Positions 16,541 through 64,000 of a stretch of DNA of 64,000 nt are shown here, in pieces. Each line of letters begins with the position of its first letter. Position 1 is the first letter of the stretch. The stretch lies in the NCBI RefSeq assembly GCF_009931435.1, contig NZ_CP043414.1; one strand, given 5' to 3'. Under the pieces are notes generated by a model. The model did not search any database, was not told the DNA's origin, and saw only the letters and a list, made by a program, of their open reading frames with translations. This stretch comes from Escherichia coli. GTDB taxonomy: Bacteria > Pseudomonadota > Gammaproteobacteria > Enterobacterales > Enterobacteriaceae. Made by a program: the position numbers and the translations under genes.

Positions 16541-16617
16541 TTGGCGGAACGGACGGGACTCGAACCCGCGACCCCCTGCGTGACAGGCAGGTATTCTAAC
16601 CGACTGAACTACCGCTC
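16541..16617 (-). tRNA. aspV: tRNA-Asp (anticodon GUC)
   Basis: 77-nt exact match in reverse complement to E. coli tRNA-Asp (GGAGCGGTAGTTCAGTCGGTTAGAATACCTGCCTGTCACGCAGGGGGTCGCGGGTTCGAGTCCCGTCCGTTCCGCCA). Confidence 0.95.
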
Positions 16618-16750
16618 CGCGTTGTGTTCCGTTGGGAACGAGGCGAATATTACGGATTGCCTCACCCTTCGTCAATGGTTTTTCTCATCTTTTGAATCGT
16701 TTGCTGCAAAAATCGCCCAAGTCGCTATTTTTAGCGCCTTTTACAGGTAT

Positions 16751-24762: not shown

Positions 24763-24839
24763 TGGCGGAACGGACGGGACTCGAACCCGCGACCCCCTGC
24801 GTGACAGGCAGGTATTCTAACCGACTGAACTACCGCTCC
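24763..24839 (-). tRNA. aspU: tRNA-Asp (anticodon GUC), rRNA-operon distal copy
   Basis: 77 nt, identical to the aspV copy at 16541-16617; lies distal to the 5S gene as in rrnH. Confidence 0.95.
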
Positions 24840-24891
24840 ACCGAATTCTTTTACAACCACCGGTTTTATGACCGGCTTACTGCTTAATTTG

Positions 24892-25011
24892 ATGCCTGGC
24901 AGTTCCCTACTCTCGCATGGGGAGACCCCACACTACCATCGGCGCTACGGCGTTTCACTTCTGAGTTCGGCATGGGGTCAGGTGGGACCACCGCGCTAAG
25001 GCCGCCAGGCA
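24892..25011 (-). rRNA. rrfH: 5S ribosomal RNA
   Basis: 120 nt; reverse complement matches E. coli 5S rRNA end to end (TGCCTGGCGGCC...GGAACTGCCAGGCAT). Confidence 0.95.
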
Positions 25012-25104
25012 AATTCTGTTTCATCAGACCGCTTCTGCGTTCTGATTTAATCTGTATCAGGCTGAAAATCTTCTCTCAATCCGCCAAAACACCTTCGGCG
25101 TTGT

Positions 25105-28008
<2,904 letters not shown>

Positions 28009-28191
28009 TCACAACCCGAAGATGTTTCTTGCGATTCATCATCGTGTTGCGAAAATTTGAGAGACTCACGAACAACTTTCGTTGTTCAGTGTTTCAATTT
28101 TCAGCTTGATCCAGATTTTTAAAGAGCAAAACTTCGCAGTGAACCTTTGCAGGTACACTCTGAAGTATTTTTTATTTAATCACTACAGAGA

Positions 28192-28267
28192 TGGTGGAGC
28201 TATGCGGGATCGAACCGCAGACCTCCTGCGTGCAAAGCAGGCGCTCTCCCAGCTGAGCTATAGCCCC
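28192..28267 (-). tRNA. alaV: tRNA-Ala (anticodon UGC), spacer tRNA
   Basis: 76 nt; reverse complement matches GGGGCTATAGCTCAGCTGGGAGAGCGCCTGCTTTGCACGCAGGAGGTCTGCGGTTCGATCCCGCATAGCTCCACCA. Confidence 0.95.
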
Positions 28268-28309
28268 ATAACATGTAGTTAAAACCTCTTCAAATTTGCG
28301 GTGCAAATT

Positions 28310-28386
<77 letters not shown>

Positions 28387-28454
28387 GTAGAGGTTTTACT
28401 GCTCATTTTCATCAGACAATCTGTGTGAGCACTGCAAAGCACAGTTCTTTAAGG

Positions 28455-29996
<1,542 letters not shown>

Positions 29997-30361: not shown

Positions 30362-30934
30362 TTACGCCGGTTTTTGCTGCTTTTTTATCGCTTGCGGCAG
30401 GTCTGCCAGGCTATTTAACACCCAATCCGCCGCGTTTTCTGCTTCAGGCGTAATAGGTTTTCCCGTACGCACCAGCACTTTTGTTCCCACGTTCGCCGCA
30501 GCCGCTGCCTGCATATCTTCTAATTTATCGCCCACCATATAAGAAGCGGCCATATCAATATGCAAATAATCGCGTGCTGACAAAAGCATCCCCGGATGTG
30601 GTTTGCGGCAGTCGCAGACCTGGCGAAACTCTTCAACACTACCCTGCGGATGATGCGGGCAATAATAGATACCATCCAGATCGACATCGCGGTCCGCCAG
30701 CGACCAGTCCATCCACTCGGTCAGCGTTTCAAACTGTGCTTCAGTAAATTTACCGCGAGCAATGCCAGACTGGTTGGTTACTACCACCAGCGCAAAGCCC
30801 ATTTTTTTTAGCTCGCGCATGGCGTCAATAACACCGTCGATAAATTCAAAGTTGTCGATCTCATGGACATAGCCGTGATCGACATTAATGGTGCCATCAC
30901 GGTCAAGAAAAATTGCGGGTACGCTCTTCGCCAC
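30362..30934 (-). CDS. gmhB: D-glycero-D-manno-heptose 1,7-bisphosphate phosphatase
   Basis: 190 aa; HAD-superfamily motif FLDRDGT near the N-terminus; matches GmhB. Confidence 0.9.
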
Positions 30935-31023
30935 CTTTTATAGCTCCTTAATAAGGCATGTGACGCTAGTATCGCATGTTTCGACCTGCAAGAAAGTGCT
31001 CTTCGCATAAACCTGATTGATTT

Positions 31024-31047
31024 AGACGTCTGGATGCCTTAACATCC
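31024..31047. promoter_or_regulatory. Candidate MetJ operator (tandem met boxes) upstream of metN
   Basis: Perfect AGACGTCT octamer at 31024-31031 followed by two degenerate octamers (GGATGCCT, TAACATCC), about 75-100 bp upstream of the metN start. Confidence 0.4.
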
Positions 31048-31121
31048 ATTTCATTGACGGCTTTGACCGTTTCAGGCATTCGAAATGCCACGACTAACTT
31101 AATGACGATAATAAATAATCA

Positions 31122-32153
31122 ATGATAAAACTTTCGAATATCACCAAAGTGTTCCACCAGGGCACCCGCACCATCCAGGCGTTGAACAACGTCAGCCTGC
31201 ATGTGCCAGCTGGACAAATTTATGGCGTTATCGGTGCCTCAGGCGCGGGTAAAAGTACGCTTATCCGTTGTGTAAACCTGCTGGAGCGCCCAACCGAGGG
31301 TAGTGTGCTGGTCGATGGTCAGGAACTGACCACGCTGTCAGAATCCGAGTTGACCAAAGCTCGCCGCCAGATTGGTATGATTTTCCAGCATTTTAACCTG
31401 CTCTCTTCGCGCACTGTTTTTGGCAACGTGGCACTGCCGCTGGAGCTGGACAACACGCCGAAAGACGAGATTAAACGTCGCGTGACAGAATTACTGTCAT
31501 TGGTTGGTCTTGGCGATAAGCATGATAGTTACCCGTCTAACCTTTCCGGTGGGCAGAAACAACGTGTGGCGATTGCCCGTGCGTTAGCCAGCAATCCCAA
31601 AGTATTGCTGTGTGATGAGGCCACCAGCGCGCTGGACCCGGCAACAACACGTTCTATTCTCGAACTGCTGAAAGACATCAATCGTCGTCTGGGTTTGACG
31701 ATTCTGTTGATCACCCACGAAATGGACGTTGTGAAGCGCATTTGTGATTGCGTGGCGGTGATCAGTAATGGCGAGTTGATCGAGCAGGACACGGTAAGTG
31801 AAGTGTTCTCGCATCCGAAAACGCCGCTAGCGCAGAAGTTTATTCAGTCGACCCTGCATCTGGATATCCCGGAAGATTACCAGGAACGTCTGCAAGCGGA
31901 GCCATTCACTGACTGCGTGCCGATGCTGCGTCTGGAGTTTACCGGTCAATCGGTCGATGCCCCGCTGCTTTCTGAAACCGCGCGTCGTTTCAACGTCAAT
32001 AACAACATTATTAGCGCGCAGATGGATTACGCCGGTGGCGTTAAGTTCGGCATCATGCTGACTGAAATGCACGGCACACAACAAGATACGCAAGCCGCCA
32101 TTGCCTGGCTGCAGGAACACCATGTAAAAGTAGAGGTACTGGGTTATGTCTGA
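31122..32153 (+). CDS. metN: Methionine ABC transporter ATP-binding protein
   Basis: 343 aa; Walker [13 protein letters not shown] signature LSGGQKQR, Walker [12 protein letters not shown]. Confidence 0.95.
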
Positions 32154-32799
32154 GCCGATGATGTGGCTGCTGGTTCGTGGCGTATGGGAAACGCTGGCAA
32201 TGACCTTCGTATCCGGTTTTTTTGGCTTTGTGATTGGTCTGCCGGTTGGCGTTCTGCTTTATGTCACGCGTCCGGGGCAAATTATTGCTAACGCGAAGCT
32301 GTATCGTACCGTTTCTGCGATTGTGAACATTTTCCGATCCATCCCGTTCATTATCTTGCTGGTATGGATGATTCCGTTTACTCGCGTTATTGTCGGTACA
32401 TCGATTGGTTTGCAGGCAGCGATTGTTCCGTTAACCGTTGGTGCAGCACCGTTTATTGCCCGTATGGTCGAGAACGCTCTGCTGGAGATCCCAACCGGGT
32501 TAATTGAAGCTTCCCGCGCAATGGGTGCTACGCCGATGCAGATCGTGCGCAAAGTGCTGTTACCGGAGGCGTTGCCAGGTCTGGTGAATGCAGCAACTAT
32601 CACCCTGATTACTCTGGTCGGTTATTCCGCAATGGGTGGCGCAGTCGGTGCCGGTGGTTTGGGTCAGATTGGCTATCAGTATGGCTACATCGGTTACAAC
32701 GCGACGGTGATGAATACGGTACTGGTATTGCTGGTCATTCTGGTTTATTTAATTCAGTTCGCAGGCGACCGCATCGTCCGGGCTGTCACTCGCAAATAA
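32146..32799 (+). CDS. metI: Methionine ABC transporter permease
   Basis: 217 aa polytopic membrane protein; 8-nt overlap with metN. Confidence 0.95.
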
Positions 32800-32838
32800 C
32801 GTTCAACACAACATAAATAATTGAAGAAGGAATAAGGT

Positions 32839-33654
32839 ATGGCGTTCAAATTCAAAACCTTTGCGGCAGTGGGAGCCCTGATTGGATCACTGGCACTGGT
32901 AGGCTGCGGTCAGGATGAAAAAGATCCAAACCACATTAAAGTCGGCGTGATTGTTGGTGCCGAACAGCAGGTTGCAGAAGTCGCGCAGAAAGTCGCGAAA
33001 GACAAATATGGCCTGGACGTTGAGCTGGTCACCTTCAACGACTATGTTCTGCCAAACGAAGCATTGAGCAAAGGCGATATCGACGCCAACGCCTTCCAGC
33101 ATAAACCGTACCTTGATCAGCAACTGAAAGATCGTGGCTACAAACTGGTCGCAGTAGGCAACACGTTTGTGTATCCGATTGCCGGTTACTCCAAGAAAAT
33201 CAAATCGCTGGATGAACTGCAGGATGGTTCGCAGGTTGCCGTGCCAAACGACCCGACTAACCTTGGTCGTTCACTGCTGCTGCTGCAAAAAGTGGGCTTG
33301 ATCAAACTGAAAGATGGCGTTGGCCTGTTGCCAACAGTTCTTGATGTTGTTGAGAACCCAAAAAACCTGAAAATTGTTGAGCTGGAAGCACCGCAGCTGC
33401 CGCGCTCTCTGGACGATGCGCAAATCGCTCTGGCGGTTATCAACACCACCTATGCCAGCCAGATTGGCCTGACTCCGGCGAAAGACGGTATCTTTGTCGA
33501 AGATAAAGAGTCTCCGTACGTAAACCTGATCGTGACGCGTGAAGATAACAAAGACGCAGAGAATGTGAAGAAATTCGTCCAGGCTTATCAGTCTGACGAA
33601 GTTTACGAAGCAGCGAACAAAGTGTTTAACGGTGGCGCTGTTAAAGGCTGGTAA
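32839..33654 (+). CDS. metQ: Methionine-binding lipoprotein
   Basis: 271 aa with lipoprotein signal (LVGC) and NlpA-family substrate-binding fold. Confidence 0.95.
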   Translation: MAFKFKTFAAVGALIGSLALVGCGQDEKDPNHIKVGVIVGAEQQVAEVAQKVAKDKYGLDVELVTFNDYVLPNEALSKGDIDANAFQHKPYLDQQLKDRGYKLVAVGNTFVYPIAGYSKKIKSLDELQDGSQVAVPNDPTNLGRSLLLLQKVGLIKLKDGVGLLPTVLDVVENPKNLKIVELEAPQLPRSLDDAQIALAVINTTYASQIGLTPAKDGIFVEDKESPYVNLIVTREDNKDAENVKKFVQAYQSDEVYEAANKVFNGGAVKGW

Positions 33655-62920: not shown

Positions 62921-62946
62921 AAAAAGGGGGCCATATGCAGGCCCCC
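62921..62946 (-). terminator. Intercistronic hairpin terminator/attenuator between rpsB and tsf
   Basis: On the minus strand: GGGGGCC-TGCATAT-GGCCCCC followed by T5, in the 258-nt rpsB-tsf spacer. Confidence 0.6.
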
Positions 62947-63121
62947 TAACCAAACGTGTACTACCTGGTCTATAAGGGCTCTCCCCCCTTCATATTTCGC
63001 GCCGCAGATGCGTTGTCTTCGCTCGCTCATCCCGGTCACTTACTGATGTAAGCTCCCGGGAATTCTCGAGCTTGCCGCCTTTCTGCAACTCGAACTATTT
63101 TGGGGGAGTTATCAAGCCTTA

Positions 63122-64000
<879 letters not shown>

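What the first reader, a model, noticed from the sequence alone, without database searches (positions are those of the whole stretch)
31024..31047. Met-box operator in the gmhB-metN intergenic region
A perfect AGACGTCT octamer followed by two degenerate tandem octamers lies upstream of metN, consistent with MetJ repression of the metNIQ transporter operon.
Basis: partly seen in the sequence, partly recalled or inferred. Interest (0 to 1): 0.2.

Follow-up and report, generated by a model that had tools for sequence, protein, structure and literature searches.

The report
Known MetJ operator at metN promoter

Summary
The window is E. coli. Positions 31024-31047 read AGACGTCT GGATGCCT TAACATCC (8/8, 5/8 and 4/8 matches to the met-box consensus). 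They lie in the 187-bp spacer between gmhB (minus strand) and metN (plus strand).

The same 24-mer is listed as the metN (b0199) operator in Augustus & Spicer 2011: 3 boxes, 20.45 bits, 74 nt from the ATG. Re-scanning with their matrix gave 20.43 bits. It is the only qualifying site in the 64 kb, and no site in 500 shuffles scored as high.

A published TSS (Kim et al. 2012) maps to window 31053. The boxes therefore span -29 to -6, filling the 17-bp spacer between a -35 (TTGATT) and a -10 (TAACAT) and covering the -10.

In 33 of 33 Enterobacterales genomes sampled, the -35-to-box-3 block is 85-98% identical to the window, against about 50% in the flanks. Tandem boxes precede metN in lineages reported to carry MetJ and in 1 of 50 loci from other taxa.

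Published data show a repression ratio of 0.05 in a reporter and derepression of metNIQ in metJ mutants.

Verdict: observation confirmed, interpretation supported, already known. The open detail is whether two or three MetJ dimers bind, because box 3 coincides with the -10.

The parts
31024..31031 (.). Met box 1, AGACGTCT (perfect palindromic consensus)
   Evidence: Sequence. 12.58 bits, the maximum of the published matrix. 97% mean identity across 34 Enterobacterales sequences.
31032..31039 (.). Met box 2, GGATGCCT (5/8 to consensus)
   Evidence: 4.22 bits, above the published single-box threshold of 3.145. 85% mean identity; the common variants AGACGCCT and AGACACCT are as good or better boxes.
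31040..31047 (.). Met box 3, TAACATCC (4/8 to consensus); overlaps the -10 hexamer
   Evidence: 3.63 bits, just above threshold. Listed as the third box in the published table. 98% mean identity, but this conservation is confounded by -10 function.
31017..31022 (+). -35 hexamer of metNp, TTGATT (TTGACT in many other genera)
   Evidence: Spans -36..-31 relative to the published TSS. 93% identity across Enterobacterales. The assignment as -35 is inferred from spacing and conservation.
31040..31045 (+). -10 hexamer of metNp, TAACAT, 17 bp after the -35
   Evidence: Spans -13..-8 relative to the published TSS. Invariant in 30 of 34 aligned sequences. Inferred.
31053..31053 (+). Transcription start site of metNIQ (A)
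   Evidence: Kim et al. 2012 supplementary TSS table gives K-12 222714 (minus), 83 reads, 5' UTR 69 nt. Its 51-nt upstream sequence is identical to window 31003-31053. The equivalent TSS was mapped in Klebsiella pneumoniae.
31053..31121 (+). 69-nt metN leader
   Evidence: Runs from the TSS to the ATG. No Rfam family matches it. Its fold is not significant in this strain, z = -1.07.
31122..33654 (+). Regulated operon metN (31122-32153), metI (32146-32799), metQ (32839-33654)
   Evidence: ORFs. Annotation of 100%-identical E. coli genomes and of K-12.

Best explanation
This is the MetJ operator of the sigma-70 promoter of the methionine ABC-transporter operon metNIQ.

The promoter is TTGATT (31017-31022), a 17-bp spacer, TAACAT (31040-31045), with the start at A31053. 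Two met boxes (31024-31039) fill the spacer. A third, weak box (31040-31047) coincides with the -10.

When methionine, and therefore S-adenosylmethionine, is plentiful, SAM-loaded MetJ dimers bind one per 8-bp box. They stabilise each other through dimer-dimer contacts. The resulting array over -29..-6 keeps RNA polymerase off the -10 and spacer. When SAM falls, MetJ leaves and the transporter is made.

Shown here: the sequence, its score, its uniqueness, its conservation and its position relative to a published TSS. Shown in the literature: MetJ-dependent repression of metN. Inferred: promoter occlusion as the mechanism, the hexamer assignments, and two versus three bound dimers. The one-dimer-per-box, cooperative, SAM-dependent binding mode is established knowledge of MetJ (crystal structures 1CMA and the 1MJ series), not tested here.
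For: - **Sequence:** the 24-mer is at the stated coordinates.
- **Published operator:** it is identical to the published b0199 metN operator: 3 boxes, 20.45 bits, gap 74.
- **Score:** I recomputed 20.43 bits. It is the only qualifying site in 64 kb. None of 500 window shuffles and none of 20,000 spacer shuffles reach it.
- **Comparison with other operators:** its total lies within the range of the other E. coli MetJ operators, 14.96-31.18 bits.
- **TSS:** the published TSS at window 31053 puts the boxes at -29..-6.
- **Phylogenetic footprint:** -35 through box 3 is 85-98% identical in 34 Enterobacterales sequences, against 47-54% in the adjoining flanks.
- **Taxon distribution:** tandem boxes lie upstream of metN in 33/33 Enterobacterales, 14/14 Vibrionales and 4/4 Aeromonadales. 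They occur in only 1/50 loci from Halomonadaceae, Bacteroidota, Bacillota, Actinomycetota and similar taxa.
- **Same layout in other lineages:** the -35 / two boxes / -10 arrangement recurs in Psychromonas, Orbaceae and Oceanisphaera.
- **Within E. coli:** the 51 bp from -50 to +1 are at least 99% identical in 5205 of 5423 genomes. The one variant I inspected changes 31014-31015, outside the boxes.
- **Repressor present:** metJ is found in 5425 of 5426 complete E. coli genomes.
- **Published experiments:** Ec.metN-lacZ repression ratio 0.05; metNQI up in E. coli delta-metJ; metN log2FC 4.27 in the Salmonella delta-metJ comparison.
- **Structures:** MetJ repressor structures exist in the PDB.
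Against: - Boxes 2 and 3 are individually weak (4.22 and 3.63 bits against a threshold of 3.145), and by plain mismatch counting the 16-mer is only modestly rare.
- Box 3's near-invariance can be explained by its role as the -10 hexamer alone. In three Enterobacterales genomes it falls below the box threshold (TACCATCC) while staying -10-like.
- I could not read a base-resolution footprint or the gel-shift image for metN. The 2002 primary papers are not held and the supplementary figure has no readable content.
- The simple promoter scan did not call TTGATT-17-TAACAT because it matches only 8 of 12 positions; it reported two other weak candidates instead.
Confidence: 0.95

Rival explanations
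1. The operator has only two boxes (31024-31039) sitting exactly in the 17-bp spacer. The third octamer, TAACATCC, is just the -10 hexamer plus two bases and is not contacted by a third MetJ dimer. This refines the main explanation rather than replacing it.
For: Box 3 has the lowest score, 3.63 bits against a 3.145 threshold. Its conservation is accounted for by -10 function. Enterobacter sp. Bisph1, Pseudescherichia vulneris and one MAG have TACCATCC, which fails the box threshold, yet keep boxes 1-2. Psychromonas, Orbaceae and Oceanisphaera have two strong boxes followed by TAGTAT or TAGCAT. My recollection, unverified because the paper is not held, is that Gal et al. 2002 described tandem MET boxes bracketed by the -35 and -10.
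Against: The published comparative study counts three boxes. Similar weak terminal boxes are counted in the metF, metK and metR/E operators (TTACATCT, ATCCATCC, ACACATCC). The CATCC half of box 3 forms a dyad with GGATG of box 2, as expected for adjacent met boxes.
Confidence: 0.35
2. The conserved block is only a promoter, and its resemblance to met boxes is coincidental. On this view metN is controlled by MetJ indirectly.
For: The conserved block coincides with the -35/spacer/-10 region. metH is a precedent for indirect MetJ control through MetR.
Against: Promoter spacers are normally not conserved in sequence, yet here the spacer is 85-97% identical and contains a perfect consensus box. Orders with quite different promoter contexts (Vibrionales, Aeromonadales) still carry tandem boxes upstream of metN, while taxa outside the lineages reported to carry MetJ almost never do. 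A 400-bp upstream fragment confers 20-fold MetJ-dependent repression.
Confidence: 0.02
3. The inverted repeat TGGATG-CCTTAA-CATCCA followed by TTTCATT (31031-31048) is an intrinsic terminator or another RNA hairpin.
For: It was flagged as terminator-like by the consensus scan.
Against: It lies upstream of the mapped TSS, at -22..-5. There is no co-directional upstream gene, since gmhB is divergent. The stem has only 6 pairs and the T-run is poor. The dyad follows automatically from adjacent palindromic met boxes.
Confidence: 0.01

Closest known systems
The published E. coli K-12 metN (abc, b0199) MetJ operator (Gal et al. 2002; Merlin et al. 2002; Augustus & Spicer 2011, Table S1)
   Same: Identical 24-nt sequence, the same 74-nt distance to the ATG, the same score, and the same flanking genes. 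This is the same element in another E. coli strain.
   Different: Nothing in the operator differs. This strain differs from K-12 at three leader positions only (31062, 31066, 31084).
Other E. coli MetJ operators (metA, metJ/metBL, metC, metE/metR, metF, metK, mmuP, ybdH/mtnE)
   Same: All are tandem, in-register 8-bp met boxes (2-4 in the published table) near the promoter of a methionine gene. Total scores are 14.96-31.18 bits, and metN's 20.43 falls in the middle.
   Different: metN is the only one in the table with a perfect consensus box (12.58 bits), flanked by comparatively weak boxes. The others spread affinity more evenly.
metN operators of other gammaproteobacterial orders
   Same: Tandem met boxes upstream of metN occur in Vibrionales, Aeromonadales, Psychromonas and Orbaceae. 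The -35 / two boxes / -10 layout is shared with Psychromonas, Orbaceae and Oceanisphaera.
   Different: In Vibrionales the boxes (AGACGTCT AGACGTAA AAATATCT) lie immediately upstream of a TTGAC motif rather than inside the spacer. In Pasteurellales only one strong box remains, and 5 of 7 loci fall below the PWM threshold.

Membership tests
MetJ operator (met-box array) | Two or more contiguous, in-register 8-bp repeats resembling AGACGTCT that pass a MetJ weight matrix | tested here: met
   Three boxes score 12.58, 4.22 and 3.63 bits, total 20.43 against the required 12.58. It is the only such site in 64 kb, and 0 of 500 shuffles reach it.
MetJ operator (met-box array) | Located at or overlapping the promoter of a methionine biosynthesis or transport gene | tested here: met
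   The boxes span -29..-6 relative to the published metN TSS at window 31053. The downstream genes are metN, metI and metQ.
MetJ operator (met-box array) | The organism encodes MetJ | tested here: met
   metJ is not in this window, but 5425 of 5426 complete E. coli genomes carry it and the window is 100% identical to E. coli genomes.
MetJ operator (met-box array) | Conserved upstream of orthologues in lineages that carry MetJ and absent in lineages that lack it | tested here: met
   Sites found in 33/33 Enterobacterales, 14/14 Vibrionales, 4/4 Aeromonadales and 2/7 Pasteurellales (the other 5 keep one perfect box). Found in 1/50 loci from other taxa. Which taxa carry MetJ comes from the literature, not from a test on these genomes.
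MetJ operator (met-box array) | Direct, SAM-dependent binding of MetJ to this DNA | not testable with these tools
   The literature reports gel shifts of 400-bp operator fragments, but the figure content is not readable and the 2002 primary papers are not held.
MetJ operator (met-box array) | Expression of the downstream gene is derepressed without MetJ | not testable with these tools
   Literature only: Ec.metN-lacZ repression ratio 0.05; metNQI up in E. coli delta-metJ; metN log2FC 4.27 in the Salmonella delta-metJ comparison.
Intrinsic terminator | A GC-rich hairpin followed by a U-run, located inside a transcript at the end of a co-directional gene | tested here: not met
   The hairpin at 31031-31048 lies upstream of the TSS, no co-directional gene precedes it, and the T-run is weak.
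Known cis-regulatory RNA (e.g. a SAM riboswitch) in the metN leader | Match to an Rfam covariance model at the gathering threshold | tested here: not met
   There is no Rfam hit between 30000 and 62000.

The most novel reading that the evidence does not exclude
The operator itself holds nothing new. The most novel reading left open concerns its neighbour. A short stem-loop starts at about +3/+4 of the metN mRNA (window about 31056-31071). It recurs at the same position in most Enterobacterales with unrelated stem sequences, which suggests a functional 5'-terminal RNA element. It could, for example, protect against 5'-end-dependent decay and so add a post-transcriptional layer to metNIQ expression. 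I am not aware that this has been described.
Probability: 0.2. Interest if true: 0.2.

Novelty: already known. Interest (0 to 1): 0.05.

Why it matters
It matters only as a correct annotation: it marks where the methionine/SAM signal shuts off high-affinity methionine uptake in E. coli. The operator, its regulator, the promoter and the transcription start were all published between 2002 and 2012. The finding adds no new biology. Its practical value is as a positive control showing that the first-stage reader can recognise a real operator from sequence alone.

Tried and rejected
- **2002 primary papers (PMC135343, PMC135292):** I tried to read them for the original operator and promoter description, but they are not held. 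My recollection of their content is marked as such.
- **Literature searches:** a search for metNIQ + MetJ + 'transcription start site' returned nothing. A loosely specified search for 'tandem MET boxes' returned only irrelevant papers. The Conway 2014 supplement is not held.
- **Generic promoter scan:** it missed the real promoter, which matches only 8 of 12 positions. It proposed ATGCCA-16-GATAAT at 31085-31112, which is inside the leader and inconsistent with the mapped TSS, so I rejected it.
- **TTGACG/TTGACC motifs at 31054-31068:** I considered them as alternative -35 elements. No acceptable -10 follows, and they lie downstream of the TSS, so I rejected them.
- **Terminator-like hairpin at 31031-31048:** rejected (see rival explanations).
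- **Riboswitch or known RNA in the leader:** no Rfam hit, and the fold is not significant in this strain (z = -1.07).
- **gmhB TSS:** none was found in the held part of the Kim et al. supplement, so the putative gmhB promoter stays unverified.

Full report
**Observation.** The window is E. coli. A 261-bp stretch around the finding is 100% identical to several complete E. coli genomes and is present in 5424 of 5426. It differs from K-12 MG1655 at three positions, all downstream of the finding.

Positions 31024-31047 read AGACGTCT GGATGCCT TAACATCC. The site lies in the 187-bp spacer between gmhB (30362-30934, minus strand) and metN (31122-32153, plus strand). metN is followed by metI, metQ, rcsF and trmO.

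**Is it more than chance?** The perfect octamer alone is not: it occurs once against 0.60 expected per 64 kb. The double box with up to 3 mismatches is the only match in the window, against 0.15 expected.

I then used the published MetJ information matrix and thresholds (Augustus & Spicer 2011, Table 3). The three boxes score 12.58, 4.22 and 3.63 bits, total 20.43. This is the only site in the window that passes. No site in 500 dinucleotide shuffles of the window reached that total (highest 18.82), and none did in 20,000 shuffles of the spacer. About 1% of octamers in the window pass the single-box threshold, so both weak boxes passing in register has a chance of about 1e-4.

**Comparison with the annotated operator.** Table S1 of Augustus & Spicer lists for E. 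coli K-12 b0199 (metN): 'agacgtctggatgccttaacatcc', 3 boxes, 20.45 bits, gap 74 to the start codon. This is the same sequence at the same distance (31122 - 31047 - 1 = 74). No alternative site exists in the spacer.

**Promoter context.**
- The supplementary TSS table of Kim et al. 2012 gives a metN TSS at K-12 222714 (minus strand), with 83 reads and a 5' UTR of 69 nt.
- Its 51-nt upstream sequence is identical to window 31003-31053. The start is therefore A31053.
- Counting back, TAACAT (31040-31045) is at -13..-8 and TTGATT (31017-31022) is at -36..-31, with a 17-bp spacer.
- The met boxes span -29..-6. Boxes 1 and 2 fill the spacer apart from its first base, and box 3 coincides with the -10.
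- The generic promoter scan missed this promoter because it matches only 8 of 12 positions. The candidates it offered lie inside the leader.
- An equivalent TSS with the same upstream sequence was mapped in Klebsiella pneumoniae.

**Comparative evidence.** One scan of genome contigs with a degenerate pattern for the MetN Walker-A/LIRCVN peptide returned 120 loci from many phyla. The pattern is independent of the operator. For each locus I located the metN start and scanned 300 nt upstream with the published criteria.

| Group | Loci with a tandem-box site |
|---|---|
| Enterobacterales | 33 of 33 |
| Vibrionales | 14 of 14 |
| Aeromonadales | 4 of 4 |
| Psychromonas / Moritella / Orbaceae | 2 of 3 |
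| Pasteurellales | 2 of 7 |
| Other taxa (Halomonadaceae, Endozoicomonas, Bacteroidota, Bacillota, Actinomycetota, Cyanobacteria, MAGs) | 1 of 50 |

The five Pasteurellales loci below threshold still carry TTGACA ... AGACGTCT AGAATAC. The single hit among 'other taxa' is a gammaproteobacterial MAG with the same TTGACTT / two boxes / TAGCAT layout as Oceanisphaera.

This distribution matches the taxa reported to have MetJ. I did not test for metJ in these genomes myself.

An alignment of 34 Enterobacterales upstream regions shows a sharp footprint:

| Region | Mean identity to the window |
|---|---|
| -35 hexamer | 93% |
| Box 1 | 97% |
| Box 2 | 85% |
| Box 3 | 98% |
| Immediately upstream of the block | 47% |
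| Immediately downstream of the block | 53% |
| Leader | 54% |

Within E. coli, the 51 bp from -50 to +1 are at least 99% identical in 5205 of 5423 genomes. The one variant I examined changes 31014-31015, just outside the -35.

**Mechanism.** Established knowledge of MetJ says that one ribbon-helix-helix dimer binds each 8-bp box. Neighbouring dimers bind cooperatively, at least two boxes are needed, and SAM is the corepressor. Solved repressor structures are found under 1CMA and the 1MJ series; the requirement for two or more adjacent sites is restated.

Combining this with the geometry above, the most likely mechanism is promoter occlusion. An array of two or three SAM-MetJ dimers over -29..-6 would block RNA polymerase from the spacer and -10.

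The trans factor is present: metJ is in 5425 of 5426 E. coli genomes. Published functional data agree with repression:
- A 400-bp metN upstream fragment gives a MetJ-dependent repression ratio of 0.05 in a lacZ assay.
- metNQI is up-regulated in E. coli delta-metJ.
- metN shows log2FC 4.27 in the Salmonella wild-type versus delta-metJ comparison.

The occlusion step and the hexamer assignments are my inferences. I did not see a base-resolution footprint.

**What remains uncertain.** It is unclear whether box 3 is a real MetJ box. It has the lowest score. Its near-invariance could be due to -10 function alone. In three genera it drops below threshold (TACCATCC) while staying -10-like. Other lineages have two strong boxes followed by TAGTAT or TAGCAT. 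The published table counts three boxes, and comparable weak terminal boxes are counted in the metF, metK and metR/E operators. I give the two-box refinement about 35%.

**Rivals rejected.**
- A pure promoter with a coincidental met-box resemblance does not fit. The spacer is conserved and contains a perfect box. Tandem boxes persist in orders with different promoter layouts. Loci from taxa outside the MetJ lineages almost never have them.
- The terminator-like hairpin reported at 31031-31048 is simply the GGATG/CATCC dyad of boxes 2 and 3. It lies upstream of the TSS.
- No Rfam family matches the leader, and its fold is unremarkable in this strain (z = -1.07).

**Novelty and verdict.** The element is already known. 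It was first described in 2002 (papers not held). It has since been tabulated with this exact sequence, tested in a reporter, and its TSS mapped. Observation confirmed, interpretation supported, interest very low.

The only mildly new items are side observations. One is a position-conserved, sequence-divergent hairpin at the 5' end of the metN leader. The other is a conserved block near gmhB that looks like an extended -10 promoter on the minus strand.

Noticed in passing
window 31056-31071 (metN leader, about +4..+19); the equivalent positions in L015, L022, L028, L045, L048, L050, L071, L076, L098, L111, L112 and others: A 5-7-bp stem-loop starts 3-4 nt after the TSS in most Enterobacterales. 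The stem sequences are unrelated between genera, for example GACGG/CCGUU here, UUCUGU/ACAGAA in Pectobacterium, UUCCGU/ACGGAA in Brenneria, CUUUGG/CCAAAG in Hafnia and CGAGGG/CCCUCG in Rahnella. For the first 28 nt of the leader the mean MFE z-score is -1.06 (n = 34). It is +0.13 for the next 28 nt and -0.33 for a control segment upstream of the -35 (Mann-Whitney p = 2.5e-5 and 0.005). The species are related, so these p-values overstate independence, and this strain's own hairpin is weak (z about -0.2). It may be a 5'-terminal stabilising stem-loop.
   Followed up: partly
window 30967-30982 (minus strand reads caTGcGATACTag): There is a second conserved block in the gmhB-metN spacer: 84% identity across Enterobacterales against about 50% in the flanks. 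On the gmhB strand it reads as an extended -10 (TGnGATACT), about 35 nt upstream of the gmhB GTG and its AAGGAG Shine-Dalgarno. It is probably the gmhB promoter. No gmhB TSS was found in the held part of the Kim et al. supplement.
   Followed up: partly
window 31031-31048: The scan flagged a terminator-like hairpin, TGGATG-CCTTAA-CATCCA followed by TTTCATT. It is the dyad formed by met boxes 2 and 3 and lies upstream of the TSS, so it is not a terminator.
   Followed up: yes
window about 32138, and 32146-32153: Kim et al. list a minor internal TSS (K-12 221629, 14 reads) 8 nt upstream of the metI start, inside the 3' end of metN. The metN and metI reading frames overlap by 8 nt.
   Followed up: no
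window 31062, 31066, 31084 and 31014-31015: All three differences between this strain and K-12 fall in the metN leader, two of them in the loop of the first hairpin. An E. coli variant (OkiPb01677) has TG>CA at 31014-31015, just upstream of the -35. None touches the met boxes.
   Followed up: yes
L002, L007, L018, L024, L027, L034, L043, L059, L074, L078 (Vibrionales); L005, L040, L079, L090, L092 (Pasteurellales); L026, L068, L095 (Aeromonas): Operator layout differs between orders. Vibrionales have AGACGTCT AGACGTAA AAATATCT immediately upstream of an aTTGAC motif. Aeromonas has two separate sites flanking a TTGACA. Most Pasteurellales keep TTGACA ... AGACGTCT AGAATAC with one strong box and fall below the published PWM threshold although they are clearly homologous.
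   Followed up: partly
window 24766-29996 (minus strand): A complete rRNA operon lies next to gmhB: 16S at 28455-29996, two spacer tRNAs at 28195-28386, 23S at 25105-28008 and 5S at 24894-25009, with a distal tRNA at 24766-24839. An Rfam StyR-44 match sits at 28016-28124 in the 23S leader. A further tRNA is at 16545-16618.
   Followed up: no
window 62926-63036 and 63875-63961 (minus strand): There are Rfam matches to the sRNA families CssrA (131 bits) and t44 (85 bits) near the right end of the window.
   Followed up: no
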